NCBI RefSeq assembly: GCF_900626135.1
Contig: NZ_LR130785.1
Span: 629,241 to 653,240 of the forward strand
Source: Senegalia massiliensis
GTDB lineage: Bacteria; Bacillota; Clostridia; Tissierellales; SIT17
Length of the DNA stretch: 24,000 nt
Direction of reading: 5' to 3'
In this document: one piece after another, positions 12,513-23,128 of the stretch
How the letters are laid out: each line of letters opens with the position of its first letter
How positions within the stretch are numbered: the first letter of the stretch is position 1
The notes under the pieces: generated by a model
What the model saw: the letters and a program-made list of their open reading frames with translations, nothing else
Told to the model about the DNA's origin: nothing
Databases searched by the model: none
Translations under genes and position numbers: made by a program

Positions 12513-12546
12513 AACCCTAGGATATAATATATTCTAGGGTTTTTTG
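12513..12546 (+). terminator. Rho-independent terminator of csp
   Basis: The stem aaccctagga/ttctagggtt is followed by tttttg. Confidence 0.8.
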
Positions 12547-12724
12547 ATGCCTATAATTCTAATTTTGTGACTAAAGGTAGAAATGAAGGCATAAGTTATT
12601 TTATGTATCAGTATTTATCATTAGCAGAACAAATAGTAGAACCACATAAGGAATATCACATTATAATAATGGAATTATATGATAGTTTTTAATATTGTTT
12701 GACATGGTAGTTTTATTATCCCTA

Positions 12725-12733
12725 TGGTATAAT
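12725..12733 (+). promoter_or_regulatory. Possible extended -10 promoter (TGgTATAAT) for the two-component operon
   Basis: TGgTATAAT at 12725-12733. No acceptable -35 at 17 nt; the TTGACA at 12699 is 23 nt away. Confidence 0.35.
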
Positions 12734-12846: not shown

Positions 12847-14427
12847 TTGATAAAAGTTATTATAGCAGACGATGAAAAAAGAATATTAAAACTCATAGAA
12901 AAATTAATTCAATGGGAAAAATTAGGTCTACAAATTGTAGGAAAAGCTAATGATGGTATAGAAGCAATAGAGCTTATAAAAGAAAAGAAGCCAAATATAG
13001 TTATTACTGATATTCGTATGCCTGGTTATGATGGCTTAGAAATGATAGAAAGAGCAAGAAATATAGATGAAAATTTACAGTTTATTATCATAAGTGGATA
13101 TGAACAATTTGAATATGCTAAAAAGGCAATAGGCTTTGGAGTAAAGGATTATTTATTAAAACCTATAAATAAACAAAAACTCACTAGAACATTAATTAAT
13201 GTAAAAAAACATATCAAAGAAAATATTGATATAGAAATTGTAAAGAAAGATGTTAATTTAATAAGAACATCTTTTTTAAATAATGCTCTTTTTAAAAATG
13301 AAGGATTAAATAATACTAATGTATCTCAAGTTAATGAAAAATATCATTTTAACTTTATAGAAAAATATTTTAATGTTGTTTTATTTAAAATTGATTATAA
13401 TACAAAACTATATAATGATATAACAGTTATGACTACAGAAATAGTTAATATAATCAAAGAAAACTTAAAATCAGATGTAAATGAATGTGAAATTATAACA
13501 AACAAAAATAATATATATTTAATATTAAATTATAATTTAAAACAATTAGAAAATATTGAAATATCCATACAACAGGTGCATAAAAAAATAATTGAGTATA
13601 TTATCGGAATAAAGAATTTTCAAGTAACCATTTCATATGGAAGTCAAGCTCAGAAAATTAATGATCTAAATATTTCTTTCCATGATTCTAATTCAATTAT
13701 TGAAGATAGAATACTTTATGGTAAAAACAAAATATATAAATATAAAGAAATATTACCTATAAAAAAAGAGGTAGAAGATATATTTTATGTTTTTTTCAAA
13801 AGATTTATAAAGTATGTGGAAATGTTAGATTATGCAAAAATAGAATATAGTTTTATGAAATTTAAGCAAGATATAAGCAATATGCCTTTAAGAGGAATAA
13901 ATTTAAAAGATTTTTTTCAGGAACTATTTAAAGCATACTATTTAGTATTAAAAAACAATAAATTCAAAAAGAATAATTTAAGTGAAGAACATAAAGATAT
14001 TAAAAATATTATTGATAATTCAGATTCAATAGACGGATTATTTAGTGATTCATTACAATATTTATTAGAAGATATAAATTCAATAACTAAAAAAAGCTTT
14101 CAAAATAATATGATAGAAATAATAAAAGCTAAAGAATTTATAGAAAAAAATTATATGGAAAATATAAAGTTAGAAGACGTAGGAAACTATATAGGATTTA
14201 ATCCAAGTTATTTTAGTAGTGTTTTTAAAAAAGAAACAGGCACTTCCTTTGTAGAATATCTTTCAATGGTAAGAATAGAAAAAGCCAAAGAATTATTAAA
14301 GGAATCTGATCTTAAGATTCAAGATATATCTAGTATGATTGGCTATAATGATTCTAAATATTTTACTAAGACATTTATAAAATATAGTGGCTTAAAACCA
14401 AAAGAATATAGAAAACTATTCGTGTAG
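12847..14427 (+). CDS. Response regulator, REC plus AraC-type HTH output (YesN-like) with an unusually long middle region
   Basis: REC motifs DD(8-9), D55 in VITDIRMPGYDG, and LLKP. The C-terminal AraC HTH pair runs YFSSVFKKETG...YFTKTFIKYSGLKPKEYR. TTG start is 9 nt after AGGAG. About 300 Asn/Lys/Ile-rich residues lie between the two domains. Confidence 0.88.
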   Translation: MIKVIIADDEKRILKLIEKLIQWEKLGLQIVGKANDGIEAIELIKEKKPNIVITDIRMPGYDGLEMIERARNIDENLQFIIISGYEQFEYAKKAIGFGVKDYLLKPINKQKLTRTLINVKKHIKENIDIEIVKKDVNLIRTSFLNNALFKNEGLNNTNVSQVNEKYHFNFIEKYFNVVLFKIDYNTKLYNDITVMTTEIVNIIKENLKSDVNECEIITNKNNIYLILNYNLKQLENIEISIQQVHKKIIEYIIGIKNFQVTISYGSQAQKINDLNISFHDSNSIIEDRILYGKNKIYKYKEILPIKKEVEDIFYVFFKRFIKYVEMLDYAKIEYSFMKFKQDISNMPLRGINLKDFFQELFKAYYLVLKNNKFKKNNLSEEHKDIKNIIDNSDSIDGLFSDSLQYLLEDINSITKKSFQNNMIEIIKAKEFIEKNYMENIKLEDVGNYIGFNPSYFSSVFKKETGTSFVEYLSMVRIEKAKELLKESDLKIQDISSMIGYNDSKYFTKTFIKYSGLKPKEYRKLFV

Positions 14428-14436
14428 GTGTGTGAA

Positions 14437-15450
14437 ATGAAATTTAAAAAAGATAATTATTATTTATTAGATAGAATATGGATACTTTTTATTATTAATT
14501 TTGTAGCAAATATTATAGTTTTTATATATTTATTATTTAATATTGAAACTATAAGTAATTATATTTTTTTAGCATTATGGTCTATTTTTATAATTGGAAT
14601 AGTTTATATTTCATATAAATGGGTCTATGAACCACATAAAAAGATAGCTAAAGTTTTAAAATTATTTTATAAAGGAGATATCTTCAAAGGTGTATTTAGT
14701 CTTAGAGTGCATATAAGTCATGAAACATATAAGACCTTTGCAAAGTTTAGAGAAATAATAGATACAAAAGAACTTATAGAAGGTTCCAAAAAACATGCTG
14801 AATATTTAGCACTTCAAAATCAAATCAACCCTCATTTTCTATATAATACCCTTGAAGCAATAAGGAGTGAGGCATTAATAGAAGAGGTTGATAGTATAGC
14901 AGATATGACAGAGTCTCTAGCAACATTTTTTAGATATACAATTTCAAATATATCTAAACTTGTTACTCTTAGTGATGAATTAGAAAATTTGAAAAATTAT
15001 TATAAGATTCAAAAGTTTAGATTTGATGATAAAATAAATTTAAATATTAAATATGAGATAGATGATATAGGACAAGCATTGAGAGCTAAAATCCCTAAAT
15101 TAACTTTACAACCTATTTGTGAGAATGCAATATTTCATGGATTAGAAACAAAGGTTGGTAAAGGAGAAATAACTTTAAGAATTAGAGCTACTGAAAAAAG
15201 ACTTATTATTTTAATATCAGATAATGGTGTAGGAATTGATGAAAAAAAAGTTGATAAAATAAATAAAAAACTTAGAGGAGCATCCTTAGAATATATGAAA
15301 AAAGATAGTAATAATCAAGGTGGTATAGCCTTGATTAATGTAAATAACAGAATAAAACTTATTTTTGGTGATGAATATGGTATTTATATGTATAGTAGGT
15401 TAGGTGCTGGAACTGATGTTGAAATAACTATACCATTTGTATTAGATTAA
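14437..15450 (+). CDS. Sensor histidine kinase, YesM/LytS-type (His_kinase PF06580-like plus HATPase_c), two TM helices with a loop of about 7 residues
   Basis: H-box LQNQINPHFLYNTLEAI, N-box ENAIFHGL, G-boxes DNGVGI and GGIALINV. TM1 ILFIINFVANIIVFIYLLF and TM2 YIFLALWSIFIIGIVYISY are separated only by NIETISN. The track start GTG 14428 abuts the upstream stop; ATG 14437 follows TAGGTG. Confidence 0.85.
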   Translation: MKFKKDNYYLLDRIWILFIINFVANIIVFIYLLFNIETISNYIFLALWSIFIIGIVYISYKWVYEPHKKIAKVLKLFYKGDIFKGVFSLRVHISHETYKTFAKFREIIDTKELIEGSKKHAEYLALQNQINPHFLYNTLEAIRSEALIEEVDSIADMTESLATFFRYTISNISKLVTLSDELENLKNYYKIQKFRFDDKINLNIKYEIDDIGQALRAKIPKLTLQPICENAIFHGLETKVGKGEITLRIRATEKRLIILISDNGVGIDEKKVDKINKKLRGASLEYMKKDSNNQGGIALINVNNRIKLIFGDEYGIYMYSRLGAGTDVEITIPFVLD

Positions 15451-15478
15451 TTTTAAATTTAAATAAAAGGTTGATATT

Positions 15479-16888
15479 ATGAATGGAGAAATTTTAAGAA
15501 TAGAAAATGTTAGTAGGAAGATTGACGGTATTACCTATTTAAATAATATAAATTTTAATATAAGAAAAGGAGAAATATTAGGGTTATTGCCTCTTGATAA
15601 TCATGGTAAAGAACAGCTTATTGAGTTAATTATTAAAAATTTAAATATTGATTATGGAAGAGTATATTTTGATGAAAAGCTTGTAAATTATTATGAATAT
15701 AGTGATATGCAATATAATGAGGTTTATGTTATTGATAAAAACACAAAATTAATCTCTGGGTTGAAAGTTATTGATAATATCTATGTATTAAATAATACTC
15801 TAAATCAGTTTATTATAAATGAAAATATATTAAGGAAAAAGGCAAAATCTATTTTTGAACATTTTGATTTAGACATTAATCCAGATAAATATATTTCTGA
15901 TTTATCTAAATTTGAGAAAGTTGTTGTTGAAGTTATAAAGGCTGTTATAAATGGTGCTAAATTAATAATTTTAAACGAATTATCTAATTTTCTAAGTATA
16001 AATGAGTTATATAATTTTCAGAAATTAATTAAATATTATTCTAAGAAAGACATTTCATTTCTTTACATGGCAAATCATCATGAAGAAGCATTTAAGATAT
16101 GTAATAGAGTTTGTCTTTTAGAAGATGGGAAAATAGTAAAAGTGATAGAAAAAAATGATTATTCTGATGAAATTATGTTACCTTATATAGTTGAGTTTGA
16201 TAGTAATACAAATTCTAATATATCAGATAATGAAAATACTATTATTGGATTTGAAGATTTTACTACCACTAATGTTTATAAGCTCAATATAAGGATAAAT
16301 AAAGGTGAATGTATAACCATACTTGATAAAGATAATAAAGGAATTCAAGATATAGTTGAATTTTTAAAGGGAAATCTGACACTTATTGATGGGAATATAA
16401 TCTTTAATAGAAAAACAATTAAATCTATAAGAAATCTTAATTCTCTTATAGAAAATGAAATATTATTTATACCAGAAAATCCAATAGATAATTTTTTGTT
16501 TTTTAATATGTCTTATTTAGAAAATCTAATGTTTCTTTTAGAACAAAAGCTAAATAATAATATTTCATTTAGAAAGAAAATAAAAATACTTAAAGAAAAA
16601 TATAAAATATTAGAAGATGTAGATATAGATGAAAATGATATTTCTAATTTAAGTAAAAAATCTCTGTACGATTTAATATATTTTAAAGTTTATGAATTTA
16701 AACCTAAGTTAGTTTTTCTAATGCAGCCTTTTTCTGGTGCAGATATGTATTTAAGAGCTAGAATAATTCAATTAATAAATAAACTTAAAAATGAAGGTAT
16801 AACAATTATAATTCTTGCTGTAAGCTTATCAGATACTTTAACTGTATCAGATAGACTTATAACTATAAAAGATGATAGTATTTTTTGA
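15479..16888 (+). CDS. Degenerate tandem-NBD ABC ATPase paralog (RbsA/MglA-like fold, catalytic motifs lost in both halves)
   Basis: It aligns along its length with the next gene, but the motifs differ. Walker A is LPLDNHGKEQ against GENGAGKST, and LDKDNKGIQ against GLMGAGRTE. Q-loop is VIDK against IHQE. Signature is LSKFEK against LSVSKQ, and LSKKSLYD against LSGGNQQK. Walker B is LIILNELS against ILIMDEPT, and LVFLMQPF against IVIFDEPT. Confidence 0.8.
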   Translation: MNGEILRIENVSRKIDGITYLNNINFNIRKGEILGLLPLDNHGKEQLIELIIKNLNIDYGRVYFDEKLVNYYEYSDMQYNEVYVIDKNTKLISGLKVIDNIYVLNNTLNQFIINENILRKKAKSIFEHFDLDINPDKYISDLSKFEKVVVEVIKAVINGAKLIILNELSNFLSINELYNFQKLIKYYSKKDISFLYMANHHEEAFKICNRVCLLEDGKIVKVIEKNDYSDEIMLPYIVEFDSNTNSNISDNENTIIGFEDFTTTNVYKLNIRINKGECITILDKDNKGIQDIVEFLKGNLTLIDGNIIFNRKTIKSIRNLNSLIENEILFIPENPIDNFLFFNMSYLENLMFLLEQKLNNNISFRKKIKILKEKYKILEDVDIDENDISNLSKKSLYDLIYFKVYEFKPKLVFLMQPFSGADMYLRARIIQLINKLKNEGITIIILAVSLSDTLTVSDRLITIKDDSIF

Positions 16889-16958
16889 AAACCTTTTTAA
16901 AATCTAATGAATGTCCCCCTAAATCAAAAGAATATCTACCTCGTCGTATTATTAGTTA

Positions 16959-16967
16959 TGGTACTAT
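16959..16967 (+). promoter_or_regulatory. Possible activator-dependent promoter of the ABC operon (TGgTACTAT, no -35)
   Basis: Extended -10 at 16959-16967. The -35 position reads cctcgt, consistent with dependence on an AraC-type activator. This is weak evidence. Confidence 0.3.
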
Positions 16968-16997
16968 GTATTTAAATAATAATAACAAAGATATTTA

Positions 16998-18554
16998 ATG
17001 AAGAAAGTAGGGGTTCTTTTGAGTAATTATGCTGTTAAAATAGAAAACGTTTCCAAAAGTTTTCCAGGTGTTAAGGCACTTGATAATGTATCATTCGATT
17101 TGAAATCTGGAGAAGTCTTAGCTTTACTTGGTGAAAATGGAGCAGGGAAGTCTACTCTTATGAAAATATTATCAGGAGTTTATACAAAAGATAGTGGTAC
17201 TATAAATATATTTGGTGAAACTATTGAAGATATGAATCCAGTTAAAGCACAGGAATTAGGTATTGCAATTATACATCAGGAGTTAAATATGTGTGATCAT
17301 TTAACTGTAGCTCAAAATATTTTTTTAGGTAGAGAGATATCTAAAAAGGGTGTTTTGTCTGAGAAAAAGATGAATATAGAAGCAAAAGAAATATTAAATA
17401 AATTAAATATAGCTATAGATCCAGAGGCTTTAGTAGGAGACTTATCTGTATCAAAGCAACAGATGGTTGAAATCGCAAAGGCTCTATCAACTAATGCAAA
17501 AATACTTATTATGGACGAACCTACATCTGCTTTAACTTCTAAAGAAATAGATGATTTGTTTAAAATAATAAAAAAATTGAAATCAGAAGGTCATGGAATA
17601 GTATACATATCTCATAGATTAGAAGAATTAGAACATATAGTGGATAGAGTTACTGTATTAAGAGATGGACAATATATTACTTCTTTAGATTTTAAAGAAA
17701 CTACACTTAAAGAAATTATATCCTATATGGTTGGAAGAGAAATAAAAGAAAAATTTCCTAGAATCAAAAGTGATGTGGGAAAGAAAATATTCGAAGTTAA
17801 GAATTTAAGTGCTGGTAATTTAGTAAGAGATATTAATTTTTCAGTATTTGAAGGAGAAATAGTTGGAATAGCTGGTTTAATGGGGGCAGGAAGAACTGAG
17901 ATGACTAGAGCAATATTTGGAGCAGATTCTAAACGTTCAGGAAAAATTTTCATTGACGGCGTTGAAGTAAGTATTAATAAGCCTATAGATGCTATTAAGT
18001 CAGGAATAGTTCTTGCTCCTGAAGATAGAAAAAATGATGGATTATGTACAAAGCTTAGTATAAGAGAAAATATCTCTCTTCCAAATCTTGACTTATTAGC
18101 TCATAAATTCGGTATAGTGAATAGCAAAAAAGAAGAGGAAATGATTCAAAAAGCAGTAGAAAATTTAGATATAAGACTTGCAAGTGCTGAAGTTAATGCC
18201 GATAGTCTATCTGGTGGAAATCAGCAAAAAGTTGTAGTAGGTAAATGGCTTTCAAGAAATTCAAGAATTGTAATTTTTGACGAACCTACAAGAGGAATAG
18301 ATGTAGGATCTAAAGTTGAAATTTATAATTTGATGAATGAATTAAAAAGCAAGGGTATTGGAGTACTTTTTGTTTCTTCTGAGATGCCAGAAGTGTTAGG
18401 TATTAGTGATAGAATTTTAGTTATGGCTGAAGGTAAAATAACTAAAGAACTTGATATAAAAGATGCTACACAAAATATTATTTTAGAGTATGCTACTAAA
18501 TTTGACAAAAAGATTAACAATGAACAGATTAACAAAGTGGAGGCGAGTATTTAA
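16998..18554 (+). CDS. Sugar ABC transporter ATP-binding protein, CUT2 family, two intact NBDs (RbsA/MglA-like)
   Basis: GENGAGKST, LSVSKQQ, ILIMDEPT and ISHRL in NBD1. GLMGAGRTE, LSGGNQQK and IVIFDEPTRGID in NBD2. The true start may be TTG 17019 (MSNYAVKIENVSKSF), 5 nt after TAGGGG. ATG 16998 has no SD. Confidence 0.92.
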   Translation: MKKVGVLLSNYAVKIENVSKSFPGVKALDNVSFDLKSGEVLALLGENGAGKSTLMKILSGVYTKDSGTINIFGETIEDMNPVKAQELGIAIIHQELNMCDHLTVAQNIFLGREISKKGVLSEKKMNIEAKEILNKLNIAIDPEALVGDLSVSKQQMVEIAKALSTNAKILIMDEPTSALTSKEIDDLFKIIKKLKSEGHGIVYISHRLEELEHIVDRVTVLRDGQYITSLDFKETTLKEIISYMVGREIKEKFPRIKSDVGKKIFEVKNLSAGNLVRDINFSVFEGEIVGIAGLMGAGRTEMTRAIFGADSKRSGKIFIDGVEVSINKPIDAIKSGIVLAPEDRKNDGLCTKLSIRENISLPNLDLLAHKFGIVNSKKEEEMIQKAVENLDIRLASAEVNADSLSGGNQQKVVVGKWLSRNSRIVIFDEPTRGIDVGSKVEIYNLMNELKSKGIGVLFVSSEMPEVLGISDRILVMAEGKITKELDIKDATQNIILEYATKFDKKINNEQINKVEASI

Positions 18555-19570
18555 TGGGGACTAAAAGTAACACTAGTAAAATTAAAAAGATTTTTTCACG
18601 AAGAGGTATGGGCCAAGTAATTACAGTTTCAATAGGACTTGTAGCATTAGTCATCGTATTTGGATTATTAAACCCAACTTTTTTCTCTAGTAGAAACATA
18701 TCAAACTTATTAAGACAAATTGCACCAATTATACTTATAGGTGTAGGTCAATCATATGTATTGATTACTGCAAATATAGATTTGTCAATAGGTTCAGTTG
18801 TTGGAATGAGTACTATGATTTCTGCTACATTAATGTCAAAAGGTATGGATCCTTTGGCTGCTGTATTTATAACTTTTATTGCAGCGTTAGGAATAGGATT
18901 ATTAAATGGATTACTTATATCAAAGGCTAAGCTTCCATCATTTATAGCAACATTAGGTACTATGACTATAGCAAGAGGTATTGCACAAATTGTTAATAAT
19001 AACTATAATACAGATTCTATTGGATCACATGCTGATGGATTTAGAGATTTATTTTATTATGGAGAAACATTTGGACTATATAATACAATTTGGATAGCAT
19101 TAGGAATTTGGTTAGTATTTAACTTTATTCTTAGTAGAACTAGAACAGGTAGACATATTTATGCGGTAGGTAGTAATATGAGTGCTGCACACCTTTCAGG
19201 AGTTAATATATCTAGTACCATAACAAAAGCATATGTAGTAAGTTCTGTGTGTGCTGCAACAGTAGGTCTTATAACTACAGCTACAAGTGGTATGGGAACT
19301 ATGGATGCAGGTACTTCATATGAATTATATGCAGTAGCAGCTTCTGTAATAGGAGGTATAAGTACATTAGGAGGACAAGGAATACTTTTAGGAACTGTAG
19401 TAGGGGCATCTATATGGGGAGTGTTACAAAATGGACTTCAATTTGCTGGTGCACCTGTAGCTATTAGGAATATAGTAATAGGTATTATTGTTATAGTATC
19501 TGTTCTTCTTGACATAGTTGTAAGGGCTAATAAAAATAAATCTAAGTCTAAGCAAAAAGCAAAATCTTAA
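18554..19570 (+). CDS. Sugar ABC transporter permease, CUT2 family (RbsC-like)
   Basis: 338 aa and polytopic. It has RbsC-like blocks: IDLSIGSV, the coupling region TRTGRHIYAVGSN, and GGISTLGGQG. The ATG overlaps the upstream TAA by 1 nt (TAATG), which suggests translational coupling. Confidence 0.9.
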   Translation: MGTKSNTSKIKKIFSRRGMGQVITVSIGLVALVIVFGLLNPTFFSSRNISNLLRQIAPIILIGVGQSYVLITANIDLSIGSVVGMSTMISATLMSKGMDPLAAVFITFIAALGIGLLNGLLISKAKLPSFIATLGTMTIARGIAQIVNNNYNTDSIGSHADGFRDLFYYGETFGLYNTIWIALGIWLVFNFILSRTRTGRHIYAVGSNMSAAHLSGVNISSTITKAYVVSSVCAATVGLITTATSGMGTMDAGTSYELYAVAASVIGGISTLGGQGILLGTVVGASIWGVLQNGLQFAGAPVAIRNIVIGIIVIVSVLLDIVVRANKNKSKSKQKAKS

Positions 19571-19621
19571 ATTAAGTTATTAAAGGGAAACCTTTAAAAA
19601 TAAAAAAATGGAGGGAATAAA

Positions 19622-20554
19622 ATGAAAAAGAAAATATTGGCAATGATGTTAATTGTATTTCTAAGTATAACAGTAATAGTAGGATGTTCTGATGATTCAG
19701 ACAGTGGTAGTGGTGATTCTCACAAAGTATATCTAATAACTATGGATCAAATGGATCAACATTGGGTATCAGTAGATGAAGGAGCTAAAGAAGCAGCAGA
19801 TGAATTAGGTAATGTAGATTATGAATGGTTAGCACCTGACGTAAAAGATGATGCAAAACAAATAGAAAGTATAAATAATGCAATTGCAGGTGGAGCTGAA
19901 GCAATATTATTAGCAGCTAATGGACCAGATGCTGTAACTCAAGCACTTAAGGAAGCAGAAAAAGAAGGTATAAAAATTGTTTATGTTGATTCACCAGCTG
20001 ATTTTCCAGCAGTTCAAACTTTAGCAACAGATAATGAAGCAGCAGGAAAACTTGCAGGGGAAGAAATGAAAAAAGCATTAGAAGAAAAAGGTATTAATGC
20101 AGGTAAAATTGGTGTAGTAAGTGTTAATGCATCTACAGATTCTACTATACAAAGAGAAAAAGGTTTTAGAAGTGCATTTGAAGGAACAGATTTTGAAATA
20201 CTAGAAACTCAATATGGAGATGGTGATGCAGCAAAATCAAAAGATATAGCTGCTAACTATATAACCCAAGATGTAGTAGGAATATTTGGTGGAAATGAAG
20301 GTTCTACTGTTGGAACTGGAAATGCTATAAAAGAAGCAGGTGGAGAAGTTATAGGAGTAGGTTTTGATAAATCTGATACAATATTACAAATGATTGAAGA
20401 AGGACATATACTTGCTACTATGTCACAAAATCCTGATGTAATGGGTTATGAAGGAGTAAAGACAGCAGTAGATGCACTTGAAGGAAAAGAAATTAATGAA
20501 GAATATGTAGATACAGGTGTTTCTGTAATAAACAAAGAATCACTTGAAAACTAA
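19622..20554 (+). CDS. Sugar-binding lipoprotein of the ABC importer (RbsB-like, periplasmic-binding-protein type I)
   Basis: Signal peptide with lipobox VIVGCS, followed by a Ser/Asp/Gly linker. The fold appears PBP type I. RBS GGAGGG. Confidence 0.88.
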   Translation: MKKKILAMMLIVFLSITVIVGCSDDSDSGSGDSHKVYLITMDQMDQHWVSVDEGAKEAADELGNVDYEWLAPDVKDDAKQIESINNAIAGGAEAILLAANGPDAVTQALKEAEKEGIKIVYVDSPADFPAVQTLATDNEAAGKLAGEEMKKALEEKGINAGKIGVVSVNASTDSTIQREKGFRSAFEGTDFEILETQYGDGDAAKSKDIAANYITQDVVGIFGGNEGSTVGTGNAIKEAGGEVIGVGFDKSDTILQMIEEGHILATMSQNPDVMGYEGVKTAVDALEGKEINEEYVDTGVSVINKESLEN

Positions 20555-20600: not shown

Positions 20601-20622
20601 AACTATATATGAGGTGATATTA

Positions 20623-21273
20623 TTGAAAAATAAAACAGAAAGAATATTAAATGAGTTAATTGAAAAATATCCAAAATTAGATTATTTAGAAGAAAGATTA
20701 AGAAATTTAATAGAAAAAACAGTAAAATCAATAAGAGGAAATGGTAAAATATTAGTATGTGGGAATGGTGGTAGTGCCTCTGATAGTGAACATATAGTAG
20801 GAGAATTATTGAAAAAATTCTATATTGATAGACCAATTGAAGATGATTTTAAAAATAATTTGAGAAAAAATTGTAATGAATATGAATATGAATATATGAG
20901 TAGTAATATGGAAGGAGCAATTCCAGCAATTTCCCTTGTTTCTCAAACAACATTTTTAACAGCATATGGTAATGATGTGAATTTTGATATGATTTATGCT
21001 CAACAAGTATATGCATATGGAAATGAAAATGATATATTGATAGCTTTATCAACATCTGGGAACTCTTCAAATGTTTATTATGCTGCAAAAGCAGCAAAAT
21101 CAAAAGGAATGATGGTTATATCATTAACAGGAGAAGATGGTGGAAAATTAAAAAGCACTAGTGACATATTGTTAAATGTACCTTTAGATGAAACATATCA
21201 AGTTCAAGAGTATCATCTTCCTCTATATCATTTTATATGTAGGGCATTAGAATATGAAATTTTTGGAGGTTAA
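20623..21273 (+). CDS. gmhA: SIS-domain sugar-phosphate isomerase of the GmhA (sedoheptulose-7-P isomerase)/DiaA family
   Basis: It aligns with E. coli GmhA blocks: KILVCGNGGSASDSEH, AISL...YGNDVNFDMIY, LIALSTSGNSSNV and MVISLTGEDGGKL...QEYHL. An insert of about 25 aa is present (IEDDFKNNLRKNCNEYEYEYMSSNMEG). TTG 20623 is 6 nt after GAGGTG; the track start is GTG 20614. Confidence 0.7.
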   Translation: MKNKTERILNELIEKYPKLDYLEERLRNLIEKTVKSIRGNGKILVCGNGGSASDSEHIVGELLKKFYIDRPIEDDFKNNLRKNCNEYEYEYMSSNMEGAIPAISLVSQTTFLTAYGNDVNFDMIYAQQVYAYGNENDILIALSTSGNSSNVYYAAKAAKSKGMMVISLTGEDGGKLKSTSDILLNVPLDETYQVQEYHLPLYHFICRALEYEIFGG

Positions 21274-21276
21274 TTT

Positions 21277-22227
21277 ATGTTTGTAATAGGATATGATATA
21301 GGAGGTACAAAAACTGCTTTTATATTATCTCAAGTAAATGATTCTGGAATAAAAATTCTCCAAAGAGAAGAATTTAAAACAACAAGAGATTGGAAAAATG
21401 TTATAGGACAGTTAATGGAAAAATCAAAAATAGCTATAAAAGATAACGATATATCTTTAGATGATTTGAAATTAGGAATTTCTTGTGGAGGACCTCTAGA
21501 TAATAAAAAAGGACTTATATTATCTCCACCTAATCTTCCTGGTTGGGATAATGTTCCTGTAGTAGATTATATTCATGAAAAAATAGGTGTAAAACCAAAC
21601 TTGCAAAATGATGCAGATGCATGTGCTTTAGCTGAATGGAGGTATGGTGCTGGTGTAGGCTATGAAAATTTAATTTTTCTTACATTTGGTACAGGGTTGG
21701 GAGCAGGTCTTATATTAAATAATAAGCTATATACTGGAGCATCTAATATGGCAGGAGAAGTAGGACATATTAGATTAGAAGATGAAGGACCTATTGGATA
21801 TGGTAAATCTGGAAGCTTTGAAGGGTTTTGTAGTGGTGGAGGAATAGCTCAATTAGCTCAATTTGAAGCTAAATCTCTAAGAAACAAAGGATTAAGAGCA
21901 TCATTTGATAAAAGAGAAATTAAAGATATAACAACAAAAGATGTATCTATAGCTGCAGAATTAGGAAATAAAGATGCTTTAGATATATTTAAGACTTCTG
22001 GTAGATATTTTGGAAAAGGATTATCTATACTTATAGATATATTAAATCCTGAAATTATAGTTGCTGGAAGTATTTATAAAAGAGCAGGTGAATTCTTAAA
22101 AGAAGAAATGTACAATGAAATTGAGAAGGAAGCACTTAAATCATCAAGTAAAGTAGTTAAAATAGTACCTGCAATGTTAGGTGAAGAAATAGGAGACTAT
22201 GGTGCTATAGTAACAGCTTTAGGGTAA
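21277..22227 (+). CDS. ROK family sugar kinase (glucokinase-like, substrate unknown)
   Basis: N-terminal ATP motif IGYDIGGTKTA. NDADACALAE. ROK signature region GTGLGAGLILNNKLYTG...GEVGH. It lacks the Cys-rich zinc motif of the next gene. Confidence 0.85.
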   Translation: MFVIGYDIGGTKTAFILSQVNDSGIKILQREEFKTTRDWKNVIGQLMEKSKIAIKDNDISLDDLKLGISCGGPLDNKKGLILSPPNLPGWDNVPVVDYIHEKIGVKPNLQNDADACALAEWRYGAGVGYENLIFLTFGTGLGAGLILNNKLYTGASNMAGEVGHIRLEDEGPIGYGKSGSFEGFCSGGGIAQLAQFEAKSLRNKGLRASFDKREIKDITTKDVSIAAELGNKDALDIFKTSGRYFGKGLSILIDILNPEIIVAGSIYKRAGEFLKEEMYNEIEKEALKSSSKVVKIVPAMLGEEIGDYGAIVTALG

Positions 22228-22249
22228 TTTAAATTAAGGGAGGCTTACT

Positions 22250-23128
22250 ATGTTAGGATCAATTGAAGCAGGTGGTACTAAATTTGTATGTGCTGTAAGC
22301 GATGAGGAATTTAATTTAATTGATAAGACATCATTTCCAACTACAGATCCAAAATCAACACTAAAAGAAATATTTAATTTTTTTGATAAATACAAAGATA
22401 TAAAATCTATTGGTATAGGATCATTTGGTCCTATAAATATTAATAAAAGCTCAGATAAATATGGATACATTACATCAACTCCTAAAACTAAATGGAAAAA
22501 TTTTAATTTTCTTGGAGAGATGAAAAAACACTATAATATACCTATTAGTTGGACTACAGATGTTAATGCAGCATGTTTAGGAGAATATTATCTAGGAAGT
22601 GCAAAAGGAAGTAATAGCTGCATTTATCTTACTGTAGGAACAGGTATTGGTGGAGGAGCTATAATAAATGGAGATTTTATGGAAGGATTTAGTCACCCAG
22701 AAATGGGACATATTTTAATTAAAAAGCATGTACAAGATAAATATGAAGGATTTTGTCCTTACCATGGAGATTGCCTGGAAGGACTTACAGCAGGACCTTC
22801 AATAGAAAAAAGATATGGTGTAAGTGGAAACAAATTAGATAAAAATCATGAAGTATGGAAGTTTATTTCTTATTATTTAGCTCAAGCTCTAGTAAATTAT
22901 ACATTAATAATAAGACCAGAAAAGATAATATTAGGTGGAGGAGTAATGAATCAAGATCATATGTTAAGTTTAGTAAAAAAGGAATTTAAATCATTACTTT
23001 CAGATTATGTAGAAGTACCTAATATAGATGATTATATAGTAAAACCTTCATTAAAAGATAATGCAGGTATTATTGGAGGTTTAGTATTAGCTTCTAAAGA
23101 ATGTGGATATTGTGGAAAAACATATTAA
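22250..23128 (+). CDS. ROK family fructokinase/mannokinase-type kinase (GmuE/Mak-like)
   Basis: MLGSIEAGGTKFVCAV closely resembles the N-terminus of Bacillus GmuE/YdhR fructokinase. Zinc motif HPEMGH...CPYHGDCLEG. RBS AAGGGAGG. Confidence 0.85.
   Translation: MLGSIEAGGTKFVCAVSDEEFNLIDKTSFPTTDPKSTLKEIFNFFDKYKDIKSIGIGSFGPININKSSDKYGYITSTPKTKWKNFNFLGEMKKHYNIPISWTTDVNAACLGEYYLGSAKGSNSCIYLTVGTGIGGGAIINGDFMEGFSHPEMGHILIKKHVQDKYEGFCPYHGDCLEGLTAGPSIEKRYGVSGNKLDKNHEVWKFISYYLAQALVNYTLIIRPEKIILGGGVMNQDHMLSLVKKEFKSLLSDYVEVPNIDDYIVKPSLKDNAGIIGGLVLASKECGYCGKTY

What the first reader, a model, noticed from the sequence alone, without database searches (positions are those of the whole stretch)
14437..15450. 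YesM/LytS-type histidine kinase with essentially no extracytoplasmic sensing domain and no HAMP-sized linker
The two TM helices are separated by about 7 residues (NIETISN). Only about 60 residues connect TM2 to the H-box (QINPHFLYNTLEAI). Characterised YesM-like sugar kinases have a large extracellular domain or partner with a binding protein. This one resembles intramembrane-sensing kinases, which depend on an accessory transporter. That fits the adjacent dead ATPase and the ABC importer. The partner response regulator also carries an unexplained Asn/Lys/Ile-rich segment of about 300 aa between REC and the AraC HTH.
Basis: partly seen in the sequence, partly recalled or inferred. Interest (0 to 1): 0.6.

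Follow-up and report, generated by a model that had tools for sequence, protein, structure and literature searches.

The report
Sensor-less sugar kinase with dead-ATPase partner
This membrane kinase has no outside sensor of its own and is almost always inherited with, and occasionally fused to, a catalytically dead copy of a sugar-transporter ATPase, which probably supplies its input signal; I found no paper describing this wiring.

Summary
The gene at 14437-15450 encodes a 337-aa PF06580/HATPase_c histidine kinase. Two TM helices are joined by the 7-residue loop NIETISN. An in-frame TAG three codons upstream rules out a longer N-terminus. The architecture is a conserved family trait: the catalytic His sits at residue 127-139 in about 75 of 80 divergent loci from Clostridia and Spirochaetes. 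A profile of the N-terminal module finds only 190 cluster representatives among 1.84 billion.

One claim fails. The TM2-to-H-box linker is HAMP-sized, as long as in a long YesM-type relative. It shows a HAMP-like helix-connector-helix with HAMP's Pro-14-Gly spacing, though no HAMP HMM detects it.

The regulator's "unexplained" 300 aa is explained. It is the GGDEF-like domain (PF17853, WspR-like fold) plus a helical domain, shared by the regulators of the related loci.

The link to the dead ATPase is strong:
- It follows the kinase in 77 of 80 loci.
- It is kept elsewhere in the one genome where it is unlinked.
- Two predicted proteins fuse kinase and dead ATPase.

The TM hairpin is the least conserved part, so input is probably cytoplasmic. 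Whether the dead ATPase reports on the adjacent CUT2 importer is inferred only. This scan has noted the same system before, on this window and in other genomes.

The parts
12699..12728 (+). Promoter-like site (TTGACA-18-TATGGT) upstream of the regulator-kinase-dead-ATPase unit. It lies downstream of the csp terminator at 12513-12541.
   Evidence: Consensus scan only. The number of promoter-like sites in the region is not above shuffles, so this is a candidate only.
12847..14427 (+). Response regulator, 526 aa: REC (4-115), helical stalk (109-149), GGDEF-like alpha/beta domain (about 159-295), helical domain (about 307-434), AraC-type HTH (432-523).
   Evidence: Pfam. PF17853 GGDEF_2 hits 25 of 35 regulators from related loci. 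AlphaFold2 pLDDT is 88.8. Foldseek top hits are WspR/PA3702, DgcR and PleD over 313-343 columns.
14437..15450 (+). Sensor-less YesM/LytS-type (PF06580) histidine kinase, 337 aa.
   Evidence: An in-frame TAG at 14425-14427 excludes a longer N-terminus.
14464..14622 (+). TM hairpin: TM1 (residues 10-34), 7-residue outside loop NIETISN (35-41, nt 14539-14559), TM2 (42-62).
   Evidence: Hydropathy and AlphaFold2 helices H10-34 and H42-78. This is the least conserved region of the family.
14623..14811 (+). Cytoplasmic HAMP-like transfer segment (residues 63-110: helix, 16-residue connector, helix; near-invariant P66 and G80), followed by a signalling helix (111-125).
   Evidence: AlphaFold2. P66 and G80 are at least 90% conserved in 53 divergent sequences. 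hhalign puts P66 and G80 on the Pro and Gly of true HAMPs, but at only 4.5% probability. No Pfam HAMP hit. The segment aligns with the linker of a long relative.
14797..15036 (+). His_kinase (PF06580) dimerisation and phosphoacceptor domain; His133 is at nt 14833-14835.
   Evidence: Pfam, 93 bits. The QNQINPHFLYN motif is invariant. The closest solved structure is the GanS kinase domain, 6swj/6swk.
15106..15438 (+). HATPase_c catalytic domain.
   Evidence: Pfam. The E229-N230 pair, the D262-x-G264-x-G266 box and G296 are invariant columns.
15479..16888 (+). Catalytically dead tandem-NBD ABC ATPase paralogue (RbsA/XylG/YtfR-like), the proposed input subunit of the kinase.
   Evidence: NCBIfam and Pfam. 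The Walker A Lys, Walker B, signature and H-switch are lost in both halves across the family, and 0 of 77 copies from related loci have a canonical Walker A or B. It lies directly downstream of the kinase in 77 of 80 loci.
16998..20554 (+). Functional CUT2-type sugar importer, the presumed regulatory target and possible co-sensor: ATPase (16998-18554), permease (18554-19570), lipoprotein binding protein (19622-20554).
   Evidence: Pfam and NCBIfam. It is adjacent to the triad in at least 58 of 80 loci, either upstream or downstream.

Best explanation
The gene encodes a membrane-anchored YesM-type histidine kinase that cannot sense anything outside the cell. Two TM helices with a 7-residue loop tether it to the membrane. 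A HAMP-like helix-connector-helix and a signalling helix link the anchor to a normal PF06580 phosphoacceptor domain and ATP-binding domain.

Its input comes from a partner protein, the catalytically dead tandem-NBD ATPase encoded immediately downstream. The two most likely form a stoichiometric complex on the cytoplasmic side.

The dead ATPase keeps the post-Q-loop segment that ABC ATPases use to grip the coupling helices of their permease. The most likely version is therefore that it docks on the permease of the adjacent CUT2 sugar importer and reports substrate-loaded or transporting states to the kinase. The kinase then phosphorylates the REC-GGDEF-like-AraC regulator, which switches on the importer and the downstream SIS/ROK sugar genes.

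Shown: the architecture, the conservation, the synteny, the fusions and the motif loss.

Inferred: the physical contact, the docking on the permease, the direction of regulation and the identity of the sugar.
For: Architecture:
- A 7-residue loop, and no upstream extension is possible.
- The His position is fixed across 120 close and 80 divergent homologues.
- The catalytic residues are invariant, so the kinase is live.

Partner:
- The dead ATPase follows the kinase in 77 of 80 loci; two of the other three are contig ends.
- In the single exception (L012), a copy 45% identical to the window's protein is kept elsewhere in the genome, between an isoleucyl-tRNA-synthetase-like gene and M42 peptidase genes.
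- Two predicted fusion proteins exist. P0145 is the kinase plus a full dead ATPase joined by a hydrophilic 24-aa linker. P0256 is the kinase plus one dead NBD, a complete gene seen on 2 contigs.
- No dead-ATPase family member has a canonical Walker A or B, yet many other positions are at least 85% conserved.

Site of input:
- TM1, the loop and TM2 have the highest entropy. The juxtamembrane segment 63-80 and the signalling helix are the best conserved parts of the N-terminal 120 residues.

Transporter link:
- The importer is adjacent in at least 58 of 80 loci.
- The best-shared stretch between 58 true ATPases and 78 dead ones is the post-Q-loop LTVAENIFLGR versus LTVADNIFVLR. The Asn there and its NBD2 counterpart are invariant in the dead family.

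Precedent:
- BceS in the BceAB-S complex is the third Foldseek hit, aligned over the full length.
- BceS-type kinases lack a sensor domain and are controlled by their ABC transporter (PMC7828314).
Against: - No experiment or structure shows a kinase-dead-ATPase or dead-ATPase-permease contact.
- The P0145 fusion comes from one Logan contig in which the neighbouring binding-protein gene is split. A sequencing error cannot be excluded.
- The P0256 fusion locus has no sugar ABC transporter nearby. About five fully flanked loci lack a close copy of the importer. Both facts fit a transporter-independent role for the dead ATPase.
- Conservation of the post-Q-loop motif could be structural rather than a docking surface.
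- The AlphaFold2 model of the kinase has only moderate confidence (pLDDT 68).
- HAMP homology is not statistically supported.
Confidence: 0.6

Rival explanations
1. The dead ATPase is an autonomous cytoplasmic sensor subunit. It binds a cytoplasmic ligand (a nucleotide, a sugar phosphate or the imported sugar) and controls the kinase directly, with no contact to the importer's permease.
For: - The P0256 fusion variant (kinase plus one dead NBD) sits in a locus with no sugar ABC transporter.
- In the L012 genome the dead ATPase gene lies in a housekeeping context away from any transporter.
- The TM region of the kinase is poorly conserved.
- Several new residues are conserved in the dead-ATPase family at former nucleotide-site positions, for example Asn and Gly in the Walker A region, His at the H-switch neighbour, and the QPF.GAD motif.
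Against: - The triad is adjacent to a CUT2 importer in most loci.
- The dead ATPase stays full-length and colinear with the tandem ATPase.
- Its best-preserved similarity to true ATPases is the permease-coupling post-Q-loop segment, not a ligand site.
Confidence: 0.25
2. This is true intramembrane sensing of the BceS type. The kinase's TM hairpin packs against the permease's TM helices and reads its conformation. The dead ATPase only modulates or stabilises the complex.
For: - The overall architecture matches BceS in the BceAB-S complex.
- Kinase and importer are syntenic.
Against: - TM1, the loop and TM2 are the least conserved segments, with no conserved polar or motif residues apart from aromatic residues at the interface.
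- The permease, by contrast, is 55-77% identical across the same loci.
- This reading does not explain why a dedicated dead ATPase is inherited with, and fused to, the kinase.
Confidence: 0.1
3. The kinase is a decaying or truncated YesM gene with no sensory role, and its neighbourhood is coincidental.
For: It is short for the family, and GC content is very low (20-23%) across the regulatory block.
Against: - All catalytic motifs are invariant.
- Length and His position are fixed in hundreds of homologues from two phyla.
- The gene order is conserved in 77 of 80 loci.
Confidence: 0.02

Closest known systems
YesM/GanS/AraS/LytS(XylFII)-type sugar-sensing kinases of 'three-component' systems in Bacillota (kinase domain of GanS, PDB 6swj/6swk)
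   Same: - The same PF06580 His_kinase plus HATPase_c core: 32-33% identity to GanS, Foldseek E 8e-14 and profile E 7e-42.
- The same type of partner regulator, REC plus AraC HTH. The REC domains of AraT and XynC are among the regulator's best structural hits.
- The same genomic theme of controlling an adjacent sugar ABC importer.
   Different: - Those kinases carry a large extracytoplasmic domain between the TM helices and are thought to receive a dedicated binding protein there (my knowledge; PMC3656788). A 594-aa relative in locus L073 has a dCache domain in that position.
- This kinase has a 7-residue loop and pairs with a dead cytoplasmic ATPase instead.
BceS-type intramembrane-sensing histidine kinases with BceAB transporters (PDB 8g3a)
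   Same: - Two TM helices with a minimal loop, a short transfer segment, then the DHp and CA domains.
- About 335 aa, with the full length aligned by Foldseek.
- No sensor domain of its own, and dependent on ABC-transporter components encoded next door (PMC7828314).
   Different: - A different kinase family (BceS is a classical HisKA-type kinase as I recall, against PF06580 here) and, as I recall, a different regulator class (OmpR-type against AraC-type).
- The partner there is an active antimicrobial-peptide-resistance transporter, BceAB, with a large extracellular loop.
- Here the transporter is a binding-protein-dependent sugar importer, with an extra, dedicated, catalytically dead ATPase that Bce systems lack.
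PhoR-PhoU-PstSCAB phosphate sensing
   Same: A kinase with a negligible outside loop takes its signal from an ABC importer through a cytoplasmic adaptor that contacts the importer's ATPase side (my knowledge, not tested here).
   Different: The adaptor PhoU is unrelated to ABC ATPases. PhoR uses a PAS domain and a HisKA core.
CUT2-family tandem ABC ATPases (RbsA, XylG, MglA, AraG, YtfR)
   Same: The partner protein is colinear with them over its full length (E 1e-41 to 1e-43 against the YtfR, XylG, AraG and RbsA models). It keeps the post-Q-loop segment.
   Different: All ATP-binding and hydrolysis motifs in both halves are lost across the family. Scores are far below every family cut-off.

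Membership tests
LytS/YesM-type histidine kinases (PF06580 core) | His_kinase (PF06580) phosphoacceptor domain with the NPHF H-box | tested here: met
   93 bits against a cut-off of 25.2. QNQINPHFLYN is invariant in 33 sequences.
LytS/YesM-type histidine kinases (PF06580 core) | C-terminal HATPase_c domain with intact N and G boxes | tested here: met
   40 bits against a cut-off of 26.4. E229/N230, D262-x-G264-x-G266 and G296 are invariant.
YesM subgroup (sugar 'three-component' sensors) | Partner regulator of the YesN type (REC plus AraC HTH) | tested here: met
YesM subgroup (sugar 'three-component' sensors) | Large extracytoplasmic sensor domain between TM1 and TM2 | tested here: not met
   The loop is 7 residues. 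It is bounded to about 10 residues family-wide by the R13-to-P66 distance.
YesM subgroup (sugar 'three-component' sensors) | HAMP domain after TM2 | tested here: inconclusive
   No Pfam HAMP hit in 33 members or in the genome scan. hhalign probability is 4.5%, although the Pro and Gly are in register. AlphaFold2 shows helix, connector, helix of HAMP size.
Intramembrane-sensing histidine kinases (Mascher 2006; BceS/LiaS-like) | Input region made only of two TM helices with a very short outside linker; small protein under 400 aa | tested here: met
   The definition is recalled from memory. PMC7828314 confirms only 'lack the extracellular sensing domain'.
Intramembrane-sensing histidine kinases (Mascher 2006; BceS/LiaS-like) | Genetic and functional coupling to an accessory membrane system (an ABC transporter for the Bce type) | tested here: inconclusive
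   Genetic coupling to a CUT2 importer and a dead ATPase is shown. Functional coupling cannot be tested here.
Intramembrane-sensing histidine kinases (Mascher 2006; BceS/LiaS-like) | HisKA or HisKA_3 core with an OmpR- or NarL-type regulator (the family make-up is recalled, not checked) | tested here: not met
   The core is PF06580 and the regulator is AraC-type. It works like an intramembrane-sensing kinase but is not a member of those clades.
Functional ABC-transporter ATPase (the partner protein) | Walker A GxxGxGK[ST], Walker B hhhhDE, LSGGQ signature, H-switch | tested here: not met
   All are lost in both NBDs. None of 77 copies from related loci has a canonical Walker A or B.

The most novel reading that the evidence does not exclude
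This is a nutrient-import state or flux sensor. A dedicated, catalytically dead copy of the importer's own ATPase plugs into the CUT2 permease in place of, or alongside, the real ATPase. It transmits the transporter's substrate-loaded conformation to a sensor-less YesM-type kinase bound to it. The cell would then measure sugar through a non-transporting 'listening' version of its importer. This would be the first case of an ABC ATPase pseudoenzyme acting as the receptor module of a two-component system.
Probability: 0.3. Interest if true: 0.8.

Novelty: new variant of a known kind. Interest (0 to 1): 0.6.

Why it matters
Sensor-less kinases that borrow a transporter as their receptor are known mainly from antibiotic-resistance modules (Bce-type) and from phosphate sensing.

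This system brings the same logic to sugar uptake in gut and environmental Clostridia and Spirochaetes, on a different kinase chassis. It also adds a new kind of adaptor, an ABC ATPase pseudoenzyme.

If confirmed, it would explain how a whole class of 'YesM' kinases annotated in many genomes perceive their signal. It would assign a function to a widespread 'ABC transporter ATP-binding protein' annotation that cannot hydrolyse ATP. It would also offer a compact three-gene sugar-sensing module for engineering.

The fixed architecture and the predicted fusion proteins make the hypothesis directly testable.

Tried and rejected
- **Longer N-terminus from an upstream start:** rejected. An in-frame TAG lies three codons before the ATG.
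- **Sequence detection of HAMP:** tried with Pfam on 33 members at E up to 10, a PF00672 scan of the whole genome, and hhalign against ten genuine HAMPs from the same genome. None was significant. HAMP-likeness therefore rests on predicted secondary structure, size and the Pro/Gly register.
- **Own-genome long YesM as comparator:** the only other PF06580 kinase is a 5TMR-LYT/GAF LytS with a LytTR regulator. It was useful only for the core.
- **'Two binding proteins' as a separate sensor binding protein** (as in CuaD-type systems): rejected. In all 14 such loci both domains lie in one ORF, a tandem double-domain lipoprotein.
- **A cytoplasmic, signal-less binding protein:** the same test rejects it.
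- **Literature searches for this arrangement:** five searches found only Bce-type and binding-protein-dependent three-component systems. The library is open-access only, so absence is not proof.
- **Mirror-tree or coevolution tests:** considered and dropped. All genes share one operon history, and 77 pairs are too few for contact prediction.

Full report
**1. What is at the coordinates**

The window carries, all on the + strand:
- a cold-shock gene with its terminator (12513-12541);
- a response regulator (12847-14427);
- the kinase (14437-15450);
- a degenerate tandem ABC ATPase (15479-16888);
- a complete CUT2-type importer: ATPase 16998-18554, permease 18554-19570, binding protein 19622-20554;
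- a GmhA-like SIS isomerase and two ROK kinases.

The kinase frame opens at GTG 14428, directly after the regulator's TAG, which lies in the same frame. ATG 14437 is preceded by AGGTG at a six-base spacing, and homologues also start MK.K, so 14437 is the likely start. The in-frame stop lies three codons upstream.

**2. Anatomy of the kinase**

- Hydropathy and an AlphaFold2 model (33-sequence alignment, mean pLDDT 68) agree on helix 10-34, loop 35-41 (NIETISN) and a helix from 42.
- That second helix continues out of the membrane to residue 78.
- A 16-residue connector follows, containing a short helix (82-88). Then come helix 95-109, helix 111-127, the two DHp helices (132-148 and 152-169) and the alpha/beta ATP-binding domain.
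- Basic residues flank the hairpin on the N-terminal and C-terminal sides, and the loop carries one acidic residue. The topology is therefore N-in/C-in.
- Pfam finds His_kinase PF06580 (121-200, 93 bits) and HATPase_c (224-334) and nothing else.
- The H-box and the invariant E229-N230, D262-x-G264-x-G266 and G296 columns show a live enzyme.

**3. Is the short form real?**

Yes.
- The word-indexed search returned more than 100 proteins of 331-350 aa at 49-96% identity, all PF06580 plus HATPase_c. Their source records name Geosporobacter, Anaerovirgula, Natronincola, Tissierella, Anaerocolumna, Proteiniclasticum and others.
- The catalytic His is at residue 132 or 133 in 97 of those 120.
- In 80 more divergent loci from species-representative genomes, His lies at 127-139 in about 75. 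These loci come from Lachnospiraceae, Oscillospiraceae, Peptococcaceae, Tepidanaerobacter, Caproiciproducens and Ruminiclostridium, plus the spirochaetes Sphaerochaeta and Treponema.
- The near-invariant R13 and P66 lie about 52 residues apart. That leaves room for two TM helices and at most about ten loop residues.
- A profile of the first 119 residues alone, searched against 1.84 billion cluster representatives, found only 190 proteins at E of 0.001 or better. Most of the 150 best listed are fragments. All but three of those over 300 aa are 307-359 aa. It is a small, sharply defined family.

**4. The linker: the part of the observation that fails**

The Pfam HAMP model has 53 positions.
- Profile comparison with a 594-aa dCache-containing PF06580 kinase from locus L073 aligns the segment from TM2 onward with that protein's linker, residues 317-392. 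The spacing is therefore the same as in a long relative.
- P66 and G80 are at least 90% conserved in 53 divergent sequences. They lie 14 residues apart, as the conserved Pro and Gly of HAMP do in my alignment of ten genuine HAMPs from this genome.
- hhalign puts them in register, but at only 4.5% probability. No HAMP HMM detects the segment.
- My reading is a divergent HAMP-like transfer module. Membership is inconclusive, but 'no HAMP-sized linker' is not supported.

**5. Where does the signal enter?**

Column entropy across the family is highest in TM1, the loop and TM2: 2.9, 3.6 and 2.9 bits in the divergent set. It is lowest, within the N-terminal 120 residues, in the juxtamembrane helix 63-80 and the signalling helix (2.0 and 1.9 bits).

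The hairpin therefore looks like an anchor. The conserved surface is cytoplasmic. This argues against literal intramembrane sensing and for a cytoplasmic partner.

**6. The partner**

- tblastn with the window's proteins shows the order regulator, kinase, degenerate ATPase in 77 of 80 loci. The median gap between kinase and ATPase matches is 37 nt.
- Two of the three exceptions are contig ends.
- In the third, L012, the kinase is followed directly by the true ATPase. The same genome still keeps a degenerate-ATPase copy, 45% identical to the window's protein, elsewhere. It lies between an isoleucyl-tRNA-synthetase-like gene and M42 peptidase genes.
- Across 78 sequences, the Walker A Lys, Walker B Asp-Glu, the signature motif and the H-switch are lost in both halves. 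None of 77 has a canonical Walker A or B.
- About 55 other columns are at least 85% conserved. The protein is therefore under selection for something other than ATP hydrolysis.
- The N-terminal profile search turned up two predicted fusions.
  - P0145 (905 aa) is the kinase (1-352), a hydrophilic Pro/Ser-rich linker, and a full dead ATPase (376-878).
  - P0256 (617 aa) is the kinase plus a single dead NBD. It is a complete gene inside its contig and is seen on two contigs.
- Such fusions are classic evidence that two proteins act as one complex.
- Caveats: P0145 rests on one contig whose neighbouring binding-protein gene is split, so an error is possible. The P0256 locus has a short regulator and no sugar importer.

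**7. Link to the importer**

- A close copy of the CUT2 importer lies next to the triad in at least 58 of 80 loci, 40 downstream and 18 upstream. Most of the rest have truncated flanks. About five fully flanked loci lack it.
- I compared 58 true ATPases with 78 dead ones. The best-shared stretch is the post-Q-loop segment of NBD1, LTVAENIFLGR versus LTVADNIFVLR. The Asn there and its NBD2 counterpart are invariant in the dead family.
- From established ABC-transporter structural knowledge, this segment begins the helical subdomain that lines the groove holding the permease's coupling helix.
- I therefore favour a model in which the dead ATPase still docks on a permease. This step is inference.

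**8. The response regulator**

- Pfam sees only REC and the AraC HTH in the window's protein. In contrast, 25 of 35 regulators from related loci hit PF17853, the GGDEF-like domain, in the middle region.
- The AlphaFold2 model is confident (pLDDT 88.8). It shows REC, a long stalk helix, an alpha/beta domain (about 159-295), a helical domain (about 307-434) and the HTH.
- Foldseek's best hits are the REC-stalk-GGDEF proteins WspR/PA3702, DgcR and PleD, over 313-343 columns.
- All 75 regulators recovered from related loci are 510-549 aa long.
- The Asn/Lys/Ile richness fits the 20-23% GC of this stretch.
- The segment is thus a conserved part of this regulator family, though its role is unknown.

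**9. Comparison with known systems**

- By sequence and structure the core is closest to GanS of Geobacillus (PDB 6swj/6swk). GanS is a YesM-type kinase of a sugar 'three-component' system.
- By architecture it resembles BceS in the BceAB-S complex, the only full-length membrane kinase among the top structural hits. BceS lacks a sensor domain and is controlled by its ABC transporter (PMC7828314).
- The present protein fails one defining feature of each group. It has no extracytoplasmic domain, unlike the YesM sensors. It has a PF06580 core and an AraC-type regulator, unlike the intramembrane-sensing clades as I recall them.
- It works like an intramembrane-sensing or co-sensing kinase, but it is a distinct subfamily of the YesM chassis with a dead-ATPase partner.

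**10. Novelty and earlier notes**

- Five full-text searches found no description of this arrangement.
- This scan has met the system before: on this window from the ATPase side, and in several other genomes. Earlier agents reached the same general reading and likewise found no paper. I treated those notes as leads only.
- New in this report, as far as those brief notes show:
  - the exclusion of an upstream start;
  - the HAMP-like linker;
  - the entropy argument for cytoplasmic input;
  - the unlinked-but-retained copy of the dead ATPase;
  - the two fusion proteins;
  - the post-Q-loop comparison;
  - the explanation of the regulator's middle region.

**11. Verdict**

The finding is a new variant of a known kind, namely accessory-dependent, sensor-less kinases. 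Dependence on the dead ATPase is reasonably well supported by genomic evidence. The transporter-coupled mechanism remains an inference.

Noticed in passing
window 14425-14439: The regulator and the kinase lie in the same reading frame, separated by a single TAG and three codons. In other loci the gap is 9-22 nt or a 3-7 nt overlap in varying frames, so this looks incidental rather than programmed read-through.
   Followed up: partly
L017, L019, L022, L027, L028, L030, L045-L047, L053, L056, L066, L070, L075 (binding-protein genes): In 14 related loci the importer's binding protein is one ORF with two tandem Peripla_BP_4 domains behind a single lipoprotein signal, giving about 620-650 aa. It first looked like two separate binding-protein genes.
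   Followed up: partly
L105:856-2709 (P0256): A variant system: the kinase is fused to a single dead NBD and sits next to a short 257-aa REC-AraC regulator that lacks the GGDEF-like middle. No sugar ABC importer is nearby; the neighbours are AIM24, Fur and ZnuABC-like genes.
   Followed up: partly
P0242 (521 aa, from the representatives search): A predicted protein with a REC domain (4-116) fused in front of the short-kinase module (173-503). It may be a regulator-kinase fusion or a deletion or assembly artefact.
   Followed up: no
L103:9115-10569 (the genome of L012): A dead ATPase gene that is unlinked from its kinase. It sits between an isoleucyl-tRNA-synthetase-like gene and three M42 peptidase genes, while the kinase in that genome is followed directly by the true ATPase.
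   Followed up: yes
window 12847-16888: GC content falls to 20-23% across the regulator, kinase and dead-ATPase block, against 29-33% in the importer and upstream genes. This fits the Asn/Lys/Ile-rich composition of the regulator. The cause (weak constraint, low expression or transfer) was not examined.
   Followed up: no
window 16889-17040: The 109-nt spacer before the true ATPase has no terminator and no good -35 element, as expected for an activator-dependent promoter. The annotated ATG 16998 has no Shine-Dalgarno sequence, and an AGGAG lies inside codons 4-6, so the true start may be a few codons downstream.
   Followed up: no
window 20614-23128: A GmhA-like SIS isomerase and two different ROK kinases (one ScrK-like, just below the family cut-off) follow the importer. 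SIS and ROK genes recur near the triad in 11 and 17 of the 80 loci. The sugar handled is unknown.
   Followed up: no
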